Positions 591-50,440 of a stretch of 64,000 bases of DNA are shown here, one piece after another. Positions within the stretch are counted from its first letter, which is position 1, and each line of letters opens with the position of its first letter. The position numbers were made by a program, and so were the translations under genes. Origin of the DNA: the human T2T-CHM13v2.0 reference genome, Homo sapiens; NCBI RefSeq assembly GCF_009914755.1, contig NC_060929.1; one strand, given 5' to 3'. The notes beneath the pieces were generated by a model. It worked only from the letters and a program-made list of their open reading frames with translations. It was not told the origin of the DNA and did no database searches.

Positions 591-2227
591 ATTTACCAAA
601 GTTTATGTTTAGTTTATAATTTTAAGAATTTACATCAGATTTCTGTGATTGTAGACAGAATTGTTTGTAAAGTCATTTGTTCTATTATTCTGCTGAAATA
701 TTAACAAATCCTCACTAGGAACATGGAAAAAGATCCAGTCCCAAAGGAGAAGGTGGTATTTGGACACAGTCCCACTTACATGCCAGCCCTAAGATTTGCT
801 TTGGCCACTTCACTATCTTTGGCATATCAGAGAGTTAATTAAATTATATGCTTTTCTTATAGAATCATTTGTACAGCTCCTATGATTAATCTTCCACAGC
901 CATTTTTTGTAGTAATTTAAAATTAGACTTTAATGTAGTTAGCTTATTTTTATTGTATGTGTTCTGTGGTATTAGAAAAATGCCACTCAATTTATTGAAA
1001 TTTAATTCAAATATTGTTATCATCCATAAATCTTACCTTTATTTAGTAAAGGCCTTGCCATCATGGGATGTTTTTCCATTAGAAACTTTGACAAATGCCT
1101 TGTAACCATAGAAATGATTTGTGAGACAGCAGGAGTAGCCAAAATAGATTAAATTAATGTGTTAGGTTTAGTGTTCACACAGCATGCTTTACTTTAATTG
1201 ATTACTCTGTGACCAAATTTAAATTACTAATATAAGTGCTGATAGAGGAAAATGAAATTTTAATAAAACACCCTTTGTATCATAGTAGCAGATTAATCTA
1301 AGTGAAAAAGCTATCATTTGTAATAAGCTTTTAAAGCTACTTTGATATCTTAAATAGAGGCAAGGTTAAAGAGCTTATAAATACAAAGAGCAGAATACGT
1401 TGAAATAATTTAACAAAAAGTCTCTGCAATTAACTTTGACTTATGCATTTACACTTTAAAACTAAGTAATATAATTAAATCAAGAAGTGGAAATAAATTT
1501 TTTTCTAGTCTTGAAATTGCAAAAGATTCATTTGTCAACAGGTTATTTAAAATAAAATGATATCAACAAATATCACAGAAGGAGTAAATGAAAACATAAT
1601 TAATGAACTTTATAACTGAGTCTCAGAGTCCATTGATTCTTACATGTATATAATCTTAGTATAAATAATTCATGGATAATGTACATTTAGTTATCAAATC
1701 ATCAATCATCCTCATCATCAAATAAAAGTTTTTGAAATATGGTTCAAATAAATAACATTGATAAATATTACCACATCATAACAATGACAAAAACAAAAAT
1801 ACCCATAATTATACAAATAAGAAAATGCCTCGTATGGCAATATTGATAGTAAAAGTGAAGTAACATTACAGGTAATAAAAGATATTTTATGCACTCATAA
1901 GTCATATCTCATCTAAATTCCAGATACTTTTATAATTATTAACTTCCTTCAATTTTTAACTTGAAGGTATGTTACAGAAAGTAATTCTCTGTATGCTATG
2001 AAATAAATAAAAAATGTAGTAGTCTTATGGGTTATTATGACTGTAGTACTTCAATTGTGTCTTTGGCTCCATTGAATTTAATCTACCACACGTTAAAACT
2101 GAAAATAAATGACTGGGAAGAAAACAAATTACTGGGTTTCCTCCTGCTTCCCATTGTTTCTTCTGAAGTGACTCAGGGAGAAGATGGCAATGTTAGTATG
2201 TTACTACTGAAAAACAGAAGGTACAAT

Positions 2228-2396
2228 CAGAGGCAGCTACAATAGGCATGCATTCATTGCAGCCACACACTTAAAGGGACTCCACACTTGGTTCAATGTT
2301 CCACTGTTGCCATCTTGAAATTTTTAAGAATCTTTGCACAAGGGACCCTGCATTTTCATTTTGCACTATGCCCACCAAATTTGATAAGCAGTCCTG
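2228..2396. mobile_element. hAT-type MITE (MER91A-like)
   Basis: CAG...CTG ends; ccacacttggttcaatg..gccatcttgaaattt..cattttcattttgcact core. Confidence 0.6.
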
Positions 2397-2699
2397 TATA
2401 CATAGACAGCCGTAGATAGTGTTAAACTGTGTAGGTGACATTAATGTGGAAATTTGTCATTTCTGTGTAAGAGAAACAGTGATTGGGCATCACTGCTGGC
2501 CATGTAGAATAAATGAACCATTCACTTCAGGAATACTTGATGAGAACATGACTGTTGTCTAAAGCTCTGAATAAGTCCATAACCTCCATTTTATTCCTTT
2601 CTATGAAGTCTGGCTCTGCTGAGAATATTCCCACTGGCACACTAGTAAAGAGCCCATTCATGACAAACAAAAAATAGAAGGCGTGCTAATATCAATATT

Positions 2700-3400
2700 T
2701 CAGGAAAATTCAAGGGAAAAATTAAATTCACTACAAAAAGGATTGTTCTATAATGGTAAATGCACAATATAATATGAATGCAAACTATTTTAGTATCATG
2801 GGAACATGATTAATACGGAGTCTTACAATGTAAGTGTAAATCTTTAATTCATCTCTCAAAATAATATAATATCAGAAATGATACAGATTTTGAAGAACAT
2901 AATTAATAATCCTGAGTTAATAAGTTTATGTGGAAATTTATAAATTAGATCAAATAGACATGTAAAGATTTCTCACATGTTCAGTAAGCATTCAAAATTG
3001 ATGTTCTCAAGGCTATAAATAAACTATAATCAATTACTAAAATTAGAAAGAGACTATAGTCTCTGGCTTCAGTGCAGTAACTCGAGAAATTAATAAGCTT
3101 AATACCACACACAATAACCTCTGAAAATTATAATATAAATCTCATCTATATAACTCTATTTGCTCTGAGAGGAAATCAAAATCAAAATAACTATTTATAA
3201 TTAAGGACTTGCAGAACAAAACATAACAAATATGTAATATATATATAAATATCTAGTCAAAGAAAACATGAAAAAATATAAATGTTTTTATTATTAACAA
3301 GAGAGATTAAATATGTGTCATGTCATTAAATTTAAATTTATTTATTGGAAAATACTGTAAAAAAATTTAATTAAACAAGAACTAGATAACATTCAATGTT
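2700..3400 (+). mobile_element. Very degraded old L1 (L1M) fragments
   Basis: A-rich sequence resembling the ORF2 endonuclease region; no open frame. Confidence 0.35.
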
Positions 3401-3431
3401 TGCATATTATTAATATATGTCAACATTTTTG

Positions 3432-3703
3432 AACTAGTCAGGGTCTTCTGGAGAAACAGAACCAACCAGCCAACAGGAAATGTATATATTTATATTTATA
3501 TATAAAGAGACTTATTATGAGGAATTGACTCACATGATTATGGTGGTTGAGAAGTTCCGTAATCTACCACATACAATCTGCTGAAGACACAGGAAAGCCA
3601 GTGATATAATTTCTAGTTCCAGCCCCAACACCTGAGAACAAGAGGTGCTGATGGTGTAAGTTTCACTCCAAGGAAAGGAGACCTATTTCTCAACTCATGC
3701 AGT
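3432..3703 (-). mobile_element. MLT2 (ERVL) LTR, partial; 3' LTR of a deleted provirus
   Basis: tagtcagggtcttctggagaaacagaacc..gaggaattgactcacatgattatgg is the MLT2 signature; joins ERVL internal sequence. Confidence 0.75.
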
Positions 3704-4740
3704 GGTAGTGCCAGATAAAAGGAACTATAACTGATTCTTCAAAAAACCATTCCACCATTCTACATCAGGCCAGCTACAAGATGTTGGGAGACATGATAAG
3801 AGTAGTCCCATTAACATGGGCCAGTTGCCACACTTTTTTTTTTCAAGCTGTGAAATGAAGCATTAAAGAATCATAATCAGTTCTGTGTAAAATTACCATA
3901 ATGGTGAAGAAGGTATTCTATAAGTCCAAGGATGGTAATTCTTTTGAAGTATAGCATACCACCTCATGGGTTACATGTTGTATCTTACCTTTAGGGGTCT
4001 GCTGGGAATTAAATCTAGTTATATGTGTAGAAGCAGAGAGAGGTGGTGGAGATTGGTTCTGAGGTGAAAGCATTGTCTTGCCTGACAACTTTCCTAGGAA
4101 AAGCCACTACAGTTTTCTCAGGCAAGGAAGGATTAATCCCCTTAGATGGGGTGCAGAGGTTGATACCACTGAGAATGGGGAAGCCTCTTCCACTGGCAGA
4201 AAAGACTTGTTAGAATCCATGAGCTCAATTTCTTCTGCTTTGTCAGGGTCTTCCCATATATCTCCATCACAACTGACAGGATCCCATTATTTTCCAATTA
4301 ATGCCCTGACAAATCCCACGAGGCTTGGAGTTCAACTTGCATTGTTATTCAGCCAGTCACATAATGAGATTCTGTATTTGATTTTCAACAATCCAAGTCC
4401 TGTGGCTACAGGAGATAAGAGTCTCTTTCCAAGCACACATAGAAGATTTTAGTTCACTTATGTGCCACTCGAGCTAGGAATTCAAGCCTCCGAGTTCATT
4501 ATTTTCCTTCACCAATTTGTCCAGTGATGTTAGGAGCAACCAGTTAGCCTCATGATATTCATTAGTTTTCCAAACATGTTTGAAAACAGTTTTTTAAACT
4601 GTTTATATACACAATGTCCCAGCTCCTTGCTTCTTATAAGTGGTTGATTAGGAGTACTCAAAGGAGATATTTTGGATATCTCTGCTACCAAATCATGCCA
4701 CAGATCATTGGTGCTATCATTGCTACAAGAAACAGAATTG

Positions 4741-5698
4741 TGTGATGGTTACTTTTATGTGTCAACTTTGGATTAAAGGATACCCAGATAGATGGTAAAG
4801 CATTATTTCTGAGGATGTCTGTGTATTAGTCCGTTCTCATACTGCTATAAAGAATACCTGAGAATGCATAATTTATTTAAAAAAAGAGGTTTAATTGACT
4901 ATCAGGAAACTTACAATCATGGCGGAAGGTGAAGGGGAAGCAAGACATGTCTTACGTGGTGAGGGGAGACAGAAAGAACGTAGGAGAAAGTGCCACACTT
5001 TTTAAATAATCAGATCTTGAAGAACTCACTCACCATTGTGAGAACAGCATAGAGGAAACCACCGCCAAGATCTGATCACCTGCCATCAGGTCCCTCCCTC
5101 CACATGTTGGGATTACAATTCAAGATGAGATTTGGATGGGGACACAGAGCCCATCCATATCAGCCTGTTCGGGTGTTTCTGGAAAAGACTGGCATTTGAA
5201 TTAGTGGATTGAGTAAGGAAGATTCACCCTCATCCAGTGTGGGTGGGTATCATTCAGTTGGCAGAGGACATGAATAGAAAAAAATGGAAGAGGAAAGGTG
5301 AATATGTTCCCTCTTCTGAAGCAGGGACAACTTTCTTCTCCTGACATTGAACATCCAGGTTCCTTGGCCTTTGGGTTTTAGAACTCGCATCAGCAGTTCT
5401 CCAGGTTCTCAGGCTTTGGCCTCAGACTAAAAGTTACACTACTGGTTGCCCTGGTTCTCAAGCCTTTGGACTTAAGCTAAGCCAAACTACCAGGTTCTTT
5501 TGTTCTCCAGCTTCCAGATGACCTACTGTGGGACTTCTCAGGGACTTCTCAGCGTCCACAATCATGTGATCTAAATTCCCCCATATGTATAAATTATGTG
5601 TGTGCATCTATCTGTATGTATGTATGTGTGTGTATGTATTCATATATATACAAATGTGTGTGTTCTCTTGCTTCTGTCCCTCTAGAGAACTCTGATAT
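4741..5698 (+). mobile_element. MLT2B-like solo LTR inserted into the ERVL internal region, itself interrupted by MSTA
   Basis: Starts tgtgatggttacttttatgtgtcaact, ends ttctgtccctctagagaactctga. Confidence 0.8.
4822..5162 (-). mobile_element. MSTA (MaLR) solo LTR
   Basis: tgtattagtccgttctc...gagatttggatggggacacagagcccatccatatca; 5-bp TSD gtctg/gcctg. Confidence 0.85.
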
Positions 5699-5810
5699 AA
5701 GTCATTATCATTTTAAAATCTAATCATATTAGAGTGCCAAATCCAGGAAATCCAGAATAAAATTAGAAAACTCATTCTTAAAATTGTGTTCCTATAGAAC
5801 CACTCTTGCC

Positions 5811-6721
5811 CTGTAGGGGCAAAGGATCTCCAAAGAAACAGGACCAATAAGATATACACCTATAAAGACACACACACACACACACACAGACACACACACA
5901 TACAATTGTTCCTCCGTATCCATAAGTTTAACCAACTGTGGATCAAAGATACTAAAAAAAATGCATTTGTACTGAACATGTACAGACATTTTTTCTTGTC
6001 ATTATCCCTTAAAGAATACAGTATAACAACTCTTGCAGCACATTTACATTGTACTTGGTATTATAAGAAATTTAGAGATGATTAAAAGTATACAGGAGGA
6101 TGTACATAACTGTATGCAAATACTCTCACATTTTATATTAGGATCTTAAGTATTTAAGAATTTTAATATCCATGGAACCAATCATCCACAGATACTGAGG
6201 GACAACTGTACATAGATAGGGGAAGATAAATTTTTATGAGACATTAGCTCCTATGATTACAGAGACTGAGAAGTCTCATGTTCTGCCATCTGTAAGCTGG
6301 AGACCCAGGAAAGTGGGTGATATGGTTCCAGTCTGAGTCCAAAGGCCAAAGAATCAGGATAACCAATATTGTAATTTCTAGTCCAGTTCTGAAAGCTTGA
6401 GTAGGCTGAGGGACTGGGAAGCAGGAGGAACACTAATGGTGTGAGTCCTGGTCTTAGGGCAAAAGAAGACCAATGCCCTAGCTCAAGTAGTCAAGTGGAG
6501 AGAGTGAATTCTCATTGCATCTGCTTTTTTTTCTATTTAAGCCCTCAATGAATTAGATAATGCCTAGTCACATTGGGGAGGGCAATTTGCTTTACTCAGT
6601 GTAGTGATTCAAAAATTAATCTCTCCTGGAAACACTCTTGCAGACACATCCAGAAATAATCTTTAACAATATCTGAGTATCCATGGCCCAGACAAGTAAA
6701 CACATGAAATTAACCATCACA
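5811..6721 (-). mobile_element. MLT2 (C/D-like) 5' LTR of the ERVL provirus, interrupted by MER2
   Basis: Ends aaattaaccatcaca; typical MLT2 body. Confidence 0.8.
5903..6208. mobile_element. MER2 (TcMar-Tigger) DNA transposon
   Basis: TIRs caattgttcctccgtatc / gatactgagggacaactg; TA duplicated on both sides. Confidence 0.85.
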
Positions 6722-6789
6722 GCTCTTCTAAAAAATTACATAAATTATCTATTTCAGTGCTGAATGATACTATTGTTTATTCACCTTTG

Positions 6790-6905
6790 AGCAAACTCAA
6801 GGACAGAGAGGTTAAGTACCTTTCCCAAAGTCACATAGCTGTGACAATGGAAGAGCTAGTTTATGAATGCAGTCAGGGTAGGTCTGTAACCTGGGCTGTT
6901 ACCCT
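6790..6905 (-). mobile_element. MIR fragment
   Basis: gagaggttaagtacctttcccaaagtcacatagct MIR core. Confidence 0.7.
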
Positions 6906-7809
6906 ATAGACTCCACCCTCAATAAATAGTAAAATAGCCCACACTGACTACATGTTTACCACTCAATGGCCCTTATTCTAAGTGGTCTAGACATTTTAAT
7001 GCATGAAATAAAAGAATAAATGAAAAGAGAACAAATGAAAACATAAAACTACAACATGTTAGGACTGTTATGCTCCACATGGACAGTGTTCCTATTGCTT
7101 CAATTACAATTGTACTCTTTGGGGACATAAACTATTGTCCAGTAATTTTTATTTTATGGATAGGCAGGTTATTTTAGGTAATCTTTCTCACCCTCTTTAC
7201 TTTTTATTGTTGGTGGAGGGTTCATTGGATTTAGATGTAAATGAAACCCTCGTGGAAACAACAGGAAACAGAAATCTTGGAACTGAAATAAAGCCCACAT
7301 CAGCAGATGCTGGGAAGCAAAAAATCAAGTCTAAGGAAATACAATAGGTTTAGTCTATTAAAGATATCACCAGTAGTACCTCTGCCAAGACAGCTATGAG
7401 AGCTGCCACAGCTAAACCTACCATAGCTATTACTGCTGCATTCACTGTGATGGCCCAATAAACAAACCTCTCCCACACTCTTCAGTCCCCATTGAGAGGC
7501 CACATGAAAGGGTGAATGTCCTGTTGGTTAAGACTGGGTACAAGTCTGGCCATAGCACCCAATGAAGTAGCTGCTACCTCTACTTCTGCAAGAGGTATTA
7601 AGTGAGAAATATATAATTGGCATAAAAATCCTCCTCTGTTAGTACATACATAATAAAAGAGGGGTATTTGGCAAGCAGCCTTGCCAGGCAACACCCATGT
7701 GCCCAAACAACAAATGCTCACATTTAATAATACATGGTTGTTAGCATCTCTTGTGTTTCCATGAGATTTACAAGGGCAGAAAATATTTTACAGTTATCTT
7801 TGTTACCTA

Positions 7810-8115
<306 letters not shown>

Positions 8116-45822: not shown

Positions 45823-46216
45823 AAGGTTTACTGAATCTGAAATGTTTGTGATCCAGGCAAAAAGTGCTAAATATCTAATACAGGGAAGTAATTGGGAGCT
45901 CTGTTCTTTCTGCTCAAATTTTCTGTTAACATAAACTGCTCTAACAAATAATATATTACTTTTGAAAATGTACTGTATTTTAATCTGCTGTGGGTTGCCT
46001 TTAACAACATGAATGGATACTTAATAAGAAAATGTCATTTTAATCATTTATTGGCTTTTTAAAAAATATATATGTAATAGAAATTTATATCCTAAAATAT
46101 ATCCTTTTGCTTTAGAATGATGGCAGAGCTATATAACTTTGGCAAATTTGGGTGGATTATATTTGAATCACTAATTGCTAATACTAAATTATCTCACTAG
46201 ACCTTTTAACACTGTG

Positions 46217-48338
46217 TTTGTTTTTTGTTTTTGTTTTTTGTCTTTTTTTGCATATTGCTTTTATTTTGCAGAAAATGTTTTGCTGATTGTCTTTGGCTAT
46301 TTTGTCAGAAGAAAAATATAACTGTTATAAGTTTAACAATACAAGATACAATTACATGTGCTCAAAATAAACTCATTCTAATGGACTGAATGGTGAAATT
46401 TCCATTTCAACTAAAATCTGTTGTTCTACACAATGGATTGATTATATCCTTAACAGCTCAATTACTATCTGAAAAGTACTCTAAAGCTATAAGAAATAGA
46501 ATTAAGTGTGATTTCATGTCACTAAAGTAAGATCAGTGGAGTTTATAAATGTTAATATGTCCAAGTCATCTGTATGCTATTATTAGAAATAAAAAATAAA
46601 TTTCTGGACCCTAGCAAATATATGTTTATAATGAATTAATAATAACAAATTAGGCCAACTGAATTTTCCTTGCAAACTCAAATTCATCTGTAGTATATAA
46701 ACACAGCTATTGTTGACAATGGGAAAGGAGTGGGTTATTTTTTTTTCGTAAAAGCAGAACACATATTCTTCATACTTTAAAATGATGTTAATATGTTTTT
46801 TCCCCTTGACCTGTAAGACTCATTTTTTACTTAGTAGATCAAATCAACACTGGTTGCCCCACACAAAAAAAGTCAGTGTATCTTTTGAAAAAAGGCTTTA
46901 CTTTCAGAGAAGATGATGACAGGGATATCCATGAGTTTATAAGGTGGGCTTGTGCCAATGCATGATATTAGCTGTCAGGACTATCTGTGGTCATGACAGG
47001 ATCTTCAGATAGTGGGGATTCTGGGAAGGAAGGACCTGAGACTGGATAAAAGGGGCCCAGTGTTCAGTGGACCTTGGAAAAAAAATGGAATCCCATCCAG
47101 TTAGATAGCCCAGCTCTCTGAAACCCTGGTGTGCTGGTACCCTACTTGCAGACCAGCGGTTGAGGAACTGATGAACTCCTGTTTTGACTCATGAGTAGCA
47201 TCCTGATCTGTGCAGACATCCCAAGGCTGGGCCAATTGTCATGGGATTGGAGCATGAATAACATGCAAATGACTTGTCAGAACAGGTTGGAGAGTTGGGG
47301 TAGGAAGGGGAATAGTGTTTCCTCAGAACAGAGTGTCTTTTACAGCCATGTGGGAAGGAAAGTAAAAGAGGACTTCCAAATCAAGGATGGAGGTTGAACA
47401 GAAGGTACTGGTTTTAGGAATAAGCCATTTTCATTAAGAATACTCAGATTGCTGTTTGTCTCCAGGTTTTTCCATCATATCATTGTGAATACTGCTTTTC
47501 TCTGCAGAAAGAAAAGTCTTTGCAAATTGATTGTATCTAACTGTAGGAGCTGGAACCTCCTCGTTATGTTAAGCCATCACAGATGTACACTGGATTTGGG
47601 GAATGAAGTAGCTGGTGATCATCCCCTCTGGAAATGTTCCTTTGGGAATTTGAGGTTCATATTTATGCAAGGAGTTCAACATGATCTGGCACCCTCTGTT
47701 GAGCTAATTCGTGAGTTTGACTTTGATGAAGGAAACAAGTGCCCTTTGATGTCTGGAGAGTCAGAGTGGATGTAGATAGAGCTAGGGCTGGCAGTTTGGG
47801 ATTACCCCAGGACACCCACTCTCTGCCCACACACTTCCAGCGGTGGCCAGCTAGATCACAAAGTGCAGGAGGAAAGAATATATGGTGTTATTGTCCAGGC
47901 CAGACAGATTCAGCTTCAGCTCTGGAAAAACTCTTCTGTCCTTCTTGGTGACATCATCTGGAAGTGCAAACACATGTAGCTCCTGGGCCAATGCTTGGGG
48001 CTACCCTCCTCACTGTTGGCCTGCAACTTGCTCTCCACAGAGCTCAGCCAGTTGTTCACCGGGTACTGCAGGCTCTTTCTAAGCCCCGTGCACAAAGGGA
48101 GCTCCTCTTCTTGACTACCTGTCACCACAGTCCCCTATAACTCCAATTCGCTACCCAAGAACTACTATCAACTCCTTTCAATGGCCACTCTTCCAAGACA
48201 AGGAAATTCAAAGGCCTACAGGACCCAGAAATAGACCTGAGATGCGAATAAATGTGGAGATTTGTAGGGAGGGGGTAAGGACAGAGGAGTGACAGTAAAG
48301 GTTATTCCACCCGAATGCCTGCAAGGCACCACTAAAGT
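46217..48338 (-). pseudogene. TBXT: Processed pseudogene of Brachyury (T-box transcription factor T); decayed CDS ~46904-48106
   Basis: Manual minus-strand translation across frameshifts: [137 protein letters not shown]; no introns; AATAAA 46260-46265; A-rich tail 46217-46249. Confidence 0.92.
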
Positions 48339-49339
48339 CCTTTGTGGCACGGCATTTGTTTTGAAAAATTACAAATTAGGCAATTGACCAGCACATAAAT
48401 ATTTATAAAAATTATAAATACAGCCATTAATTTCTTGGAAGACCTTTTTTAATCAAAAGAAGCACTTCAAATGCCTCAGAACATAAGTTATACATACATC
48501 AGGATTATTATATCTTGTAATTTTCTATAATATTTTGTTAGATTTTTATACTGTTTTTAAGTGTCTTGGCCACAGATAATTCAAGTTTGATATATATTTG
48601 GAAGGCTTCTTTAAAGGTTTCCTATGAGAGCTGCAATTTTTGACAATTTGGAAGTTATAGACACTTTTGGATGGTAACTTAGTAAAGTACCATATGCTGT
48701 GAACATGACTTTTTGTGTTTTCCAAGCAACACTGGGTATGTCTGTGAACCTGACCTGCACAAAGTAGTTATTTCAGTTCTTTAAGCCTCCTGCCAAACTG
48801 GTGTAGTAGCTTTTAATATGGGCAGATGGCCACTTCGAAACAAATCAAAATACAATATTTGGTCTCTAAACTTATCTGAATTCAAATCTTTGAATATGAA
48901 TGCTAGCTCAGATTGAATTTCAGGTCCTGCTAATTGTTTTGATGTAGCTAGGCAGTTTGCATGAAACATGTTTGATCAAATAGCTAACACAGGCTTCACT
49001 TCTTAGTAAATAGTTGTGTAATGTCCCTTCTGGTGCTTTGTTAAATGTGATAACAAAGTTAAAATATAAAAGTATTAATCTGCAGCTCCTATGGAGTATA
49101 AAATGGACAAATATATATTAACAAGAAACACCAATCTAATTCAGAGCCTATGAATGCATGGTTTATTGCTGAAATCTGGCAGAACTTTTAAACGTTTAAT
49201 CTGCAAGTAGCATCTAAGAGAAATATGATTAAGAGCAAAACATGTAAGTGCAGTGGTTTATAACAGAGTAGCTGTGGCACAAGCTTCAAGCAAACAAAAG
49301 TAATTACGTTGATTTAAGCGGTTCCTTCCCATTAATTCT

Positions 49340-50134: not shown

Positions 50135-50440
50135 GGCTGGATGTGGTGGCTCATGCCTGTAATCCTAGCACTTTGGGAGGCCGAGGCAGGCGGATCATCT
50201 GAGGTCAGCAGTTCGTGACTAGCCTGGCCAACAAGGCAAAACCCCATCTCCACTAAAAATACAAAAATTAGCTGGGCGTGGTGGCAGGTGCCTGTAATCC
50301 CAGACACTTGGAAGGCTGAGGCGGGAGAATTGCTTGACCCCGAGAGGCAGAGGTTGCAGTAAGCCAAGGCCAAGATCGCACCATTGCATCCCATCCTTGG
50401 GGACAAGAGTGAAACTCTGTCTCCAAAAAAAGAAAAAAAA
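50135..50440 (+). mobile_element. AluS (Sq/Sx-like)
   Basis: Full dimer with A-tail. Confidence 0.95.

What the first reader, a model, noticed from the sequence alone, without database searches (positions are those of the whole stretch)
46217..48338. Ancient full-length retrocopy of Brachyury (TBXT), nearly invisible in the ORF track
Seen: stitching minus-strand frames recovers Brachyury from the N-terminus (KSLQY..[10 protein letters not shown]) through the whole T-box to the C-terminus. It is contiguous across recalled exon junctions (GR|R, GQ|IML, EE|I, YSQ|W). The ATG is mutated to AGG (48104-48106), with stops (e.g. 47704-47706, 47569-47571), frameshifts and small deletions. Established: heritable retrocopies need germline or early-embryo mRNA, and T is expressed in primitive streak, PGC specification and spermatogonia. 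Inference: a rare retrocopy of a developmental master regulator and fossil evidence of germline-lineage T expression. Heavy divergence suggests an old, possibly pre-primate, insertion. I cannot tell whether it is already annotated.
Basis: partly seen in the sequence, partly recalled or inferred. Interest (0 to 1): 0.85.

Follow-up and report, generated by a model that had tools for sequence, protein, structure and literature searches.

The report
Old dead retrocopy of TBXT (Brachyury)
This stretch is a very old, thoroughly broken, intron-free copy of the messenger RNA of the developmental gene TBXT (Brachyury) that was pasted into chromosome 5; it is real, but it is already annotated as a pseudogene and looks like ordinary genomic fossil material.

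Summary
Window 46246-48334 (minus strand) is colinear with the spliced mRNA of the TBXT gene on chr6 of the same genome. Homology runs from 248 nt before the ATG to the poly(A) cleavage site. An A-rich tail follows, down to about 46215. All 7 of 7 coding exon junctions are seamless. The frame holds 7 stops and 23 gap events, 17 of them frameshifting. The source is TBXT, not TBX19: the C-terminal half and both UTRs match TBXT.

The copy is old. CDS identity to the parent is 71.8%, 92 CpGs have decayed to 10, and GC has fallen from 56% to 41%. It carries eutherian-specific residues but none of the later human-lineage changes. Placement outside Eutheria is rejected (AU p about 0.02-0.03). I found no sign of early constraint.

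RefSeq already lists it as LOC100533667, for the coding part only. A second, independent, younger full-length TBXT retrocopy lies on chr1, so such a copy is not unique. Verdict: a correct reading of an ordinary, already annotated processed pseudogene. Interest is low.

The parts
48107..48334 (-). Copy of the TBXT 5'UTR (parent -248 to -1 relative to the ATG)
   Evidence: Local alignment to the spliced parent model: 142 of 219 aligned nt identical (64.8%). The chr1 copy starts at the same parental base. The parent has TATTTAT at -293..-287.
46904..48106 (-). Disabled copy of the whole TBXT coding sequence (435 codons plus stop), all 7 exon junctions fused
   Evidence: 860 of 1198 aligned nt identical (71.8%). 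ATG>AGG at 48106-48104. 7 in-frame stops, at 47706, 47571, 47436, 47433, 47383, 47144 and 46970. 23 gap events (110 nt deleted, 5 nt inserted), 17 of them frameshifting. Pfam T-box E 8.5e-18. The original TGA stop is kept at 46906-46904.
47491..47995 (-). T-box DNA-binding domain remnant (about aa 42-224)
   Evidence: 374 of 503 aligned nt identical (74.4%). Best PDB match is human Brachyury 6f59, E 6.2e-23.
46246..46903 (-). Copy of the whole TBXT 3'UTR, ending at the parental cleavage site
   Evidence: 457 of 627 aligned nt identical (72.9%); the last 300 nt are 81.5% identical. In the parent the genome continues TGTGATTCG after ...ATATGCAAAA; here an A-rich tract follows instead.
46260..46265 (-). 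AATAAA polyadenylation signal inherited from the mRNA
   Evidence: Read from the sequence and aligned to the parent's AATAAA. It lies 14 nt before the end of homology.
46215..46245 (-). Degenerate poly(A) tail
   Evidence: 25 A in 31 nt, directly after the last parental base and absent from the parent locus.

Best explanation
A mature, fully spliced, polyadenylated TBXT (Brachyury) mRNA of the canonical isoform was reverse-transcribed and inserted into what is now chr5p. That isoform contains exon 6 and uses the YSQ|WGW acceptor. The event happened in a germline or pre-germline embryonic cell of an early placental or stem-eutherian ancestor, presumably through the LINE-1 machinery. The copy arrived without a promoter and has decayed neutrally ever since, taking on the AT-rich composition of its surroundings. 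Today it is a non-coding processed pseudogene.

Shown here: derivation from TBXT mRNA, full length, absence of introns, the tail, the disabling changes, the neutral pattern of change, and the relative age.

Inferred: the LINE-1 mechanism, the cell type of origin, the absolute age, and the absence of any present function.
For: - **Colinearity.** blastn of the window against the parent locus G000:C6:167525001-167541000 gives 9 colinear matches that together touch all 8 coding exons, and nothing in the introns.
- **Spliced alignment.** Homology runs from parent -248 to +659 after the stop. All 7 of 7 junctions are seamless. The alignment ends 14 nt after AATAAA and is followed by 25 A in 31 nt.
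- **Source is TBXT.** The PDB best hit is human Brachyury at E 6.2e-23, against TBX5 at 2.3e-6. TBX19 matches the T-box and a short N-terminal patch only.
- **Isoform.** At the NAGNAG acceptor of exon 6 the copy follows the canonical form.
- **Decay.** 7 stops, 17 frameshifting indels and loss of the ATG. CpG count falls from 92 to 10 and GC from 0.563 to 0.410, in a window of GC 0.353. There are 383 strong-to-weak against 100 weak-to-strong changes.
- **No early constraint.** This was counted on the chr5 branch at sites where the parent and the chr1 copy agree. Nondegenerate versus fourfold sites changed 67/252 versus 23/69 at G/C (P 0.29) and 42/290 versus 3/37 at A/T (P 0.45). Nondegenerate sites in the T-box versus the rest changed 55/255 versus 54/287 (P 0.45).
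- **Age from diagnostic residues.** The copy is nearer the eutherian-derived state at 4 of 5 sites, with 1 tie. It is nearer the ancestral state at 8 of 8 human-lineage sites, at 1 of 1 primate site and at 1 of 1 boreoeutherian site.
- **Age from tree placement.** On a fixed species tree, 15 placements were tested. The best is at the eutherian root. The four placements outside Eutheria (with marsupials, and on the therian, mammalian or amniote stems) are 11.5-15.1 lnL worse, with AU p 0.021-0.026.
- **Branch length.** Three-way branch lengths are chr5 0.286, chr1 0.178 and parent 0.117 substitutions per site.
Against: - No significant target-site duplication was found. 513 of 2000 shuffles reach the score of the best candidate.
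- Placements inside primates are only 2.5-3.2 lnL worse and are not rejected (AU p 0.17-0.19). The protein tree alone therefore does not prove a pre-primate age. That claim rests on the 8 + 1 diagnostic sites and on the branch length.
- The absolute age depends on recalled neutral-distance calibrations. The copy's original GC richness inflates its rate: G/C non-CpG sites differ at 0.336 against 0.175 for A/T sites.
- The last 100 nt of the 3'UTR are better preserved than the neutral expectation (9 differences in 95 aligned nt against 21.2 expected, P 0.0009). Pure neutral decay does not explain this.
- Expression and conservation in other mammals could not be examined with these tools.
Confidence: 0.95

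Rival explanations
1. It is a retrocopy of the paralogue TBX19 (TPIT), or of another T-box gene, rather than of TBXT.
For: TBX19 (P0002) matches the T-box part at 40% identity, E 3e-27.
Against: TBX19 gives no match beyond aa 239. The frog TBXT matches through aa 433. The nucleotide alignment covers the TBXT 5'UTR, all 8 coding exons and 659 nt of TBXT 3'UTR. The PDB ranking puts Brachyury 17 orders of magnitude ahead of TBX5, TBX3 and TBX1.
Confidence: 0.01
2. The retrocopy was, for a time, an expressed and selected retrogene, or it still acts as a regulatory RNA or DNA element, and is not junk from the start.
For: The last ~100 nt of the 3'UTR are preserved beyond expectation (P 0.0009). The hub table lists a RefSeq 'silencer' feature at 50209-50400, 1.9 kb from the copy's 5' end.
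Against: Nondegenerate and fourfold sites changed at the same rate on its branch, and the T-box is no better kept than the rest. The start codon is lost and there are 7 stops and 17 frameshifts. The same 3'UTR segment is also preserved in the unrelated chr1 copy (1 difference in 52 aligned nt against 8.4 expected). That points to a property of the sequence rather than a local function. The silencer lies in a masked repeat outside the copy.
Confidence: 0.04
3. It is a DNA-level (segmental) duplicate of TBXT, or a copy of the chr1 pseudogene, rather than an independent retroposition.
For: The two copies share one stop (AAG>TAG at codon 151) and the same 5' start.
Against: All introns are removed exactly, and an A-rich tail sits at the mRNA cleavage site. 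The chr5 and chr1 copies are further from each other (JC 0.464) than either is from the parent (0.403 and 0.295). They share only 7 changes at 327 non-CpG second codon positions. The shared 5' end is what a common transcription start site predicts.
Confidence: 0.01

Closest known systems
LOC100533667, 'T-box transcription factor T pseudogene' (RefSeq annotation of T2T-CHM13, hub table)
   Same: This is the same object. The annotated span 46917..48077 (minus strand) lies inside the stretch analysed here.
   Different: The annotation covers only the protein-similar part and gives no exons. The alignment here extends the copy to 46215-48334: 228 nt of 5'UTR, the whole 3'UTR and the tail.
LINE-1-mediated processed pseudogenes of mammalian genomes (general class; recalled knowledge)
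   Same: It is intronless, colinear with the mRNA, ends in a poly(A) tail at the cleavage site, lies on a different chromosome from its parent, lacks a promoter and is riddled with disablements.
   Different: Flanking target-site duplications can no longer be recognised. It is full length from about the transcription start, whereas I recall that many processed pseudogenes are 5'-truncated.
Second TBXT processed pseudogene at G000:C1:183061244-183069581 (found here)
   Same: It has the same parent, the same 5' start (-248, possibly -260) and the same poly(A) site. It also contains exon 6 and is also disabled (6 stops).
   Different: It is younger (branch 0.178 against 0.286). It is split by a ~6.5 kb retrovirus-like insertion and lacks CDS nt 1034-1187. 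It is an independent event.
TBXT parent gene, G000:C6:167527458-167537641
   Same: It is the source of the sequence. Exon order, UTRs and the polyadenylation signal all correspond.
   Different: The parent has 7 introns within the coding region, an intact 435-codon frame, 56% GC and 92 CpGs. It also has one more GGGACCC unit in the 5'UTR than either fossil copy.

Membership tests
Processed pseudogene (retrocopy of an mRNA) | All parental introns absent, with exon junctions fused exactly | tested here: met
   7 of 7 junctions of the parent's coding exons are seamless in the alignment.
Processed pseudogene (retrocopy of an mRNA) | Homology confined to the transcribed region, including the UTRs, and ending at the polyadenylation site | tested here: met
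   The local alignment stops at parent -248 and at +659, 14 nt after AATAAA. This was so although 600 nt of upstream and 900 nt of downstream parental DNA were offered.
Processed pseudogene (retrocopy of an mRNA) | A-rich tail at the 3' end that is not encoded at the parent locus | tested here: met
   25 A in 31 nt at 46245-46215. The parent continues TGTGATTCG at that point.
Processed pseudogene (retrocopy of an mRNA) | Flanking target-site duplication | tested here: inconclusive
   The best flank-to-flank alignment scores 7.0. That score is reached by 513 of 2000 shuffles and by 536 of 2000 random window pairs. Loss of the duplication is expected at this divergence.
Processed pseudogene (retrocopy of an mRNA) | Location unlinked to the parent | tested here: met
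   The window is on contig C5 and the parent on C6.
Processed pseudogene (retrocopy of an mRNA) | Loss of coding capacity | tested here: met
   ATG>AGG, 7 stops and 17 frameshifting indels. The longest stop-to-stop frame listed over the copy's coding part on that strand is 74 aa.
Derived from TBXT (not another T-box gene) | Similarity outside the shared T-box: N-terminus, C-terminal half and UTRs | tested here: met
   Frog TBXT aa 258-433 and 11-37 match; TBX19 does not match beyond aa 239. The TBXT 5'UTR and 3'UTR align at 64.8% and 72.9%.
Functional retrogene | Open reading frame and purifying selection (fewer changes at nondegenerate than at degenerate sites) | tested here: not met
   There is no open frame. 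Nondegenerate versus fourfold change is 67/252 versus 23/69 at G/C (P 0.29) and 42/290 versus 3/37 at A/T (P 0.45).

The most novel reading that the evidence does not exclude
The chr5 and chr1 copies are two independent fossils of the TBXT mRNA, each running from the transcription start to the poly(A) site, taken at two early moments of placental history. Together they would show that the start site (about -248 to -260, some 30 nt after a TATTTAT), the exon-6-containing isoform and the cleavage site were already in use about 100 million years ago or earlier. They would also let changes on the living gene's own lineage be polarised. The last ~100 nt of the 3'UTR resist decay even in both dead copies. 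That would point to an intrinsically mutation-cold sequence, or to one that is reused, for example as a polyadenylation or RNA-binding element, wherever it lands.
Probability: 0.15. Interest if true: 0.35.

Novelty: already known. Interest (0 to 1): 0.15.

Why it matters
It matters little in itself. The object is an annotated processed pseudogene in a gene desert.

Three modest values remain:
- It shows that TBXT mRNA was present in cells contributing to the germline of early placental ancestors, at least twice. This follows from how heritable retrocopies arise.
- The two fossils polarise changes in the living TBXT gene. They confirm that the exon-6-containing isoform, the start site and the poly(A) site are ancient. 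This gives background for work on TBXT isoforms; I recall exon 6 skipping being discussed in connection with hominoid tail loss.
- The RefSeq span could be extended to include both UTRs and the tail.

Tried and rejected
- **Target-site duplication.** The look-alike AAAGGACTTTAGTG / AAAGGTCTAGTG is not significant (513 of 2000 shuffles). Part of it is homologous to the parent's 5'UTR.
- **Homology upstream of -248.** For the chr5 copy, 4 of 13 ungapped matches, so no support. For the chr1 copy, 8 of 13, which is suggestive only.
- **TBX19 as the source.** Rejected.
- **Duplication of one pseudogene from the other.** Rejected.
- **An early period of constraint.** No signal, though the power is limited: 69 and 37 fourfold sites.
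- **Literature.** 'brachyury pseudogene' gave 0 papers and 'LOC100533667' gave 0. Six phrases, including 'TBXT pseudogene', 'TBXTP1' and 'brachyury retrocopy', gave 12 papers, judged irrelevant from the listing. I read only the passage with the single 'TBXTP1' hit; it concerns NCOA4 condensates and looks like a slip for another gene name. 'TBXT' together with 'processed pseudogene' gave 2 papers, seen as listing and abstract starts only, neither about this locus. I therefore found no description in the searched library. Retrocopy catalogues and their supplements were not examined.
- **Earlier findings of this scan.** These were not open to the session.

Full report
**What is there**

On the minus strand of the window, stop-to-stop frames carry recognisable Brachyury fragments. 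Examples are [38 protein letters not shown] and [16 protein letters not shown]. I read the strand with X at stops. One of its three frames then hits Pfam T-box (PF00907) at E 8.5e-18 over profile positions 21-180 of 182; the other two frames hit nothing. A 112-residue piece (47431-47766) finds 13 solved sequences. Human Brachyury/TBXT (6f59, 6f58) is best at E 6.2e-23, then Xenopus T at 3.2e-19. TBX5, TBX3 and TBX1 score only 2e-6 to 9e-5.

A word-based search of the large protein database returned 8 proteins, led by a frog TBXT (P0001) and a marsupial TBX19 (P0002). tblastn of P0001 against the window gives colinear matches for aa 11-37, 64-248, 258-377 and 311-433, at 48077-46905. TBX19 matches only aa 61-239 and a short N-terminal patch.

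**The parent and the spliced alignment**

The window's own assembly is held. A lemur TBXT protein (P0056) finds the intron-containing TBXT gene at C6:167528120-167537393 and TBX19 on C1. It also finds an open T-box frame on C15, which I take from memory to be MGA. Finally, it finds two intronless, stop-ridden matches: this window (C5:28318905-28319952) and C1:183068578-183069423.

blastn of window 45900-48700 against 16 kb of the chr6 locus gives nine colinear matches. They touch every coding exon, the 5'UTR and the 3'UTR, and no intron. I derived the parent's exon bounds from GT/AG sites and the protein. The NAGNAG acceptor of exon 6 was resolved. The coding sequence is 1308 nt.

A local alignment of the spliced model against the window runs from parent -248 to +659 after the stop, which is window 48334-46246. 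The model was offered 600 nt of upstream and 900 nt of downstream genomic DNA, so the alignment was free to extend further. All 7 junctions are crossed without extra sequence. At exon 6 the copy follows the canonical YSQ|WGW form, and exon 6 itself is present.

The alignment ends 14 nt after AATAAA (46265-46260). The parent continues TGTGATTCG at that point, whereas the window has 25 A in 31 nt (46245-46215). These are the marks of a processed pseudogene made from a complete mRNA.

**State of decay**

| Region | Identical / aligned nt | Identity |
|---|---|---|
| 5'UTR | 142 / 219 | 64.8% |
| CDS | 860 / 1198 | 71.8% |
| 3'UTR | 457 / 627 | 72.9% |

The start codon is AGG (48106-48104). The coding part has 23 gap events (110 nt deleted, 5 nt inserted), of which 17 shift the frame. 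Of 383 ungapped codons, 211 still encode the parental residue.

CpGs fell from 92 to 10 and GC from 0.563 to 0.410, in a window of GC 0.353. There are 383 strong-to-weak changes against 100 the other way. No significant target-site duplication remains: 513 of 2000 shuffles reach the best score.

**A second copy, and what it allows**

The parent's last exon also matches C1:183061244-183061921. After fetching 9.8 kb, the chr1 locus proves to be another TBXT retrocopy. In the three-way MAFFT alignment it starts at the same parental base (-248). It may extend to about -260, since 8 of 13 ungapped matches lie just upstream. It ends at the same poly(A) site and contains exon 6, but lacks CDS nt 1034-1187. 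After about CDS nt 907-911 it is split by a ~6.5 kb insertion. Open frames in that insertion hit the retroviral Gag p30, protease, reverse transcriptase and integrase families.

The parent carries TATTTAT at -293..-287. The shared start is therefore most simply the TBXT transcription start. This is an inference.

Three-way Jukes-Cantor branch lengths over 1745 sites are chr5 0.286, chr1 0.178 and parent 0.117. At non-CpG second codon positions they are 0.208, 0.145 and 0.015, and only 7 of 327 such sites are shared by the two copies against the parent. The two copies are therefore independent insertions, and the chr5 copy is about 1.5-1.6 times older.

**Was it ever constrained?**

I used sites where the parent and the chr1 copy agree, so that the ancestral state is secured. 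On the chr5 branch, nondegenerate and fourfold sites changed equally often:
- G/C sites: 67/252 versus 23/69, P 0.29.
- A/T sites: 42/290 versus 3/37, P 0.45.
- Nondegenerate sites in the T-box versus the rest: 55/255 versus 54/287, P 0.45.

Within the limited power, the copy decayed neutrally from the start.

**Age**

I aligned 28 vertebrate TBXT proteins with the human protein translated from the parent and with the codon-wise reading of the copy. Strict rules then picked out diagnostic sites:

| Class of derived site | Sites | State of the chr5 copy |
|---|---|---|
| Eutherian-derived | 5 | nearer the derived state at 4, tie at 1 |
| Human-lineage (after the split from the lemur) | 8 | nearer the ancestral state at 8 |
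| Primate-derived | 1 | ancestral |
| Boreoeutherian-derived | 1 | ancestral |

I also placed the copy on a fixed species tree. The topology comes from established knowledge, not from a calculation here. Of 15 placements, the best is at the eutherian root. The four placements outside Eutheria are 11.5-15.1 lnL worse (AU p 0.021-0.026). Placements within primates are 2.5-3.2 lnL worse and are not rejected (AU p 0.17-0.19).

The neutral branch of about 0.27-0.29 substitutions per site exceeds the roughly 0.17 that I recall for the human lineage since the human-mouse ancestor. However, the copy's GC richness inflates its rate: 0.336 per G/C non-CpG site against 0.175 per A/T site. My estimate is therefore an insertion after the marsupial split and before crown primates, most likely around the base of placental mammals. 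The absolute figures rest on recalled calibrations. No other mammalian genome could be searched.

**An oddity**

In 100-nt windows, the last ~100 nt of the 3'UTR differ far less than composition predicts. The chr5 copy has 9 differences in 95 aligned nt against 21.2 expected (P 0.0009). The chr1 copy has 1 in 52 against 8.4 expected (P 0.0012). 23 windows per copy were scanned; 22 (chr5) and 21 (chr1) had enough aligned bases to be tested. I have no tested explanation. Low mutability of this AT-rich stretch is the dull one.

**Comparison with what is known**

The hub's annotation table lists LOC100533667, 'T-box transcription factor T pseudogene', at 46917..48077 (minus strand). The object is therefore already known. 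The analysis here adds the UTRs, the tail, the relative and approximate age, and the sister copy.

Four literature searches found no paper on it. The one 'TBXTP1' hit is unrelated. Retrocopy databases and their supplements were not seen.

**Verdict**

The thing is an ordinary, long-dead, already annotated processed pseudogene. Interest is low.

Noticed in passing
G000:C1:183061244-183069581 (locus L018 202-8981, minus strand): A second, independent, full-length TBXT processed pseudogene. It has the same 5' start and the same poly(A) site as the chr5 copy, 6 stops, and lacks CDS nt 1034-1187. It is younger than the chr5 copy (branch 0.178 against 0.286).
   Followed up: partly
L018 about 1446-7984 (G000:C1:183062046-183068584): A ~6.5 kb insertion splits the chr1 TBXT pseudogene. 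Open frames of 429, 354 and 256 aa hit Pfam RVT_1 and RVP, Gag_p30, and (below the curated cut-off) rve. It is an endogenous retrovirus-like element in the same orientation. Four parental bases (CDS nt 907-911) are matched on both sides of it. It was observed only.
   Followed up: partly
window 46246-46345 and L018 (chr1 183061244-183061310): The last ~100 nt of the TBXT 3'UTR are preserved well beyond the composition-based expectation in both dead copies (chr5: 9 differences in 95 aligned nt against 21.2 expected; chr1: 1 in 52 against 8.4). This is unexplained.
   Followed up: partly
parent locus G000:C6, about 167537540-167537565 (5'UTR, about -150 to -125 relative to the ATG): The living TBXT gene has one more GGGACCC unit in its 5'UTR than either fossil copy. 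This suggests a 7-nt tandem gain on the parent's lineage after both retropositions.
   Followed up: no
parent locus G000:C6, -293..-287 relative to the TBXT ATG: A TATTTAT motif lies 39-45 nt upstream of the first base shared with both retrocopies. That is about 27-33 nt upstream if the chr1 copy really starts at -260. The position is consistent with a TATA-directed start site that is conserved since the retropositions.
   Followed up: partly
G000:C6:85973801-85974118: A weak T-box-like match (31% identity to TBXT aa 100-201) with 5 stops. It might be part of another T-box gene or another old pseudogene.
   Followed up: no
window 50209-50400: A RefSeq 'silencer' feature (hub table) lies 1.9 kb beyond the copy's 5' end, inside a masked repeat. 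No link to the pseudogene was seen.
   Followed up: no
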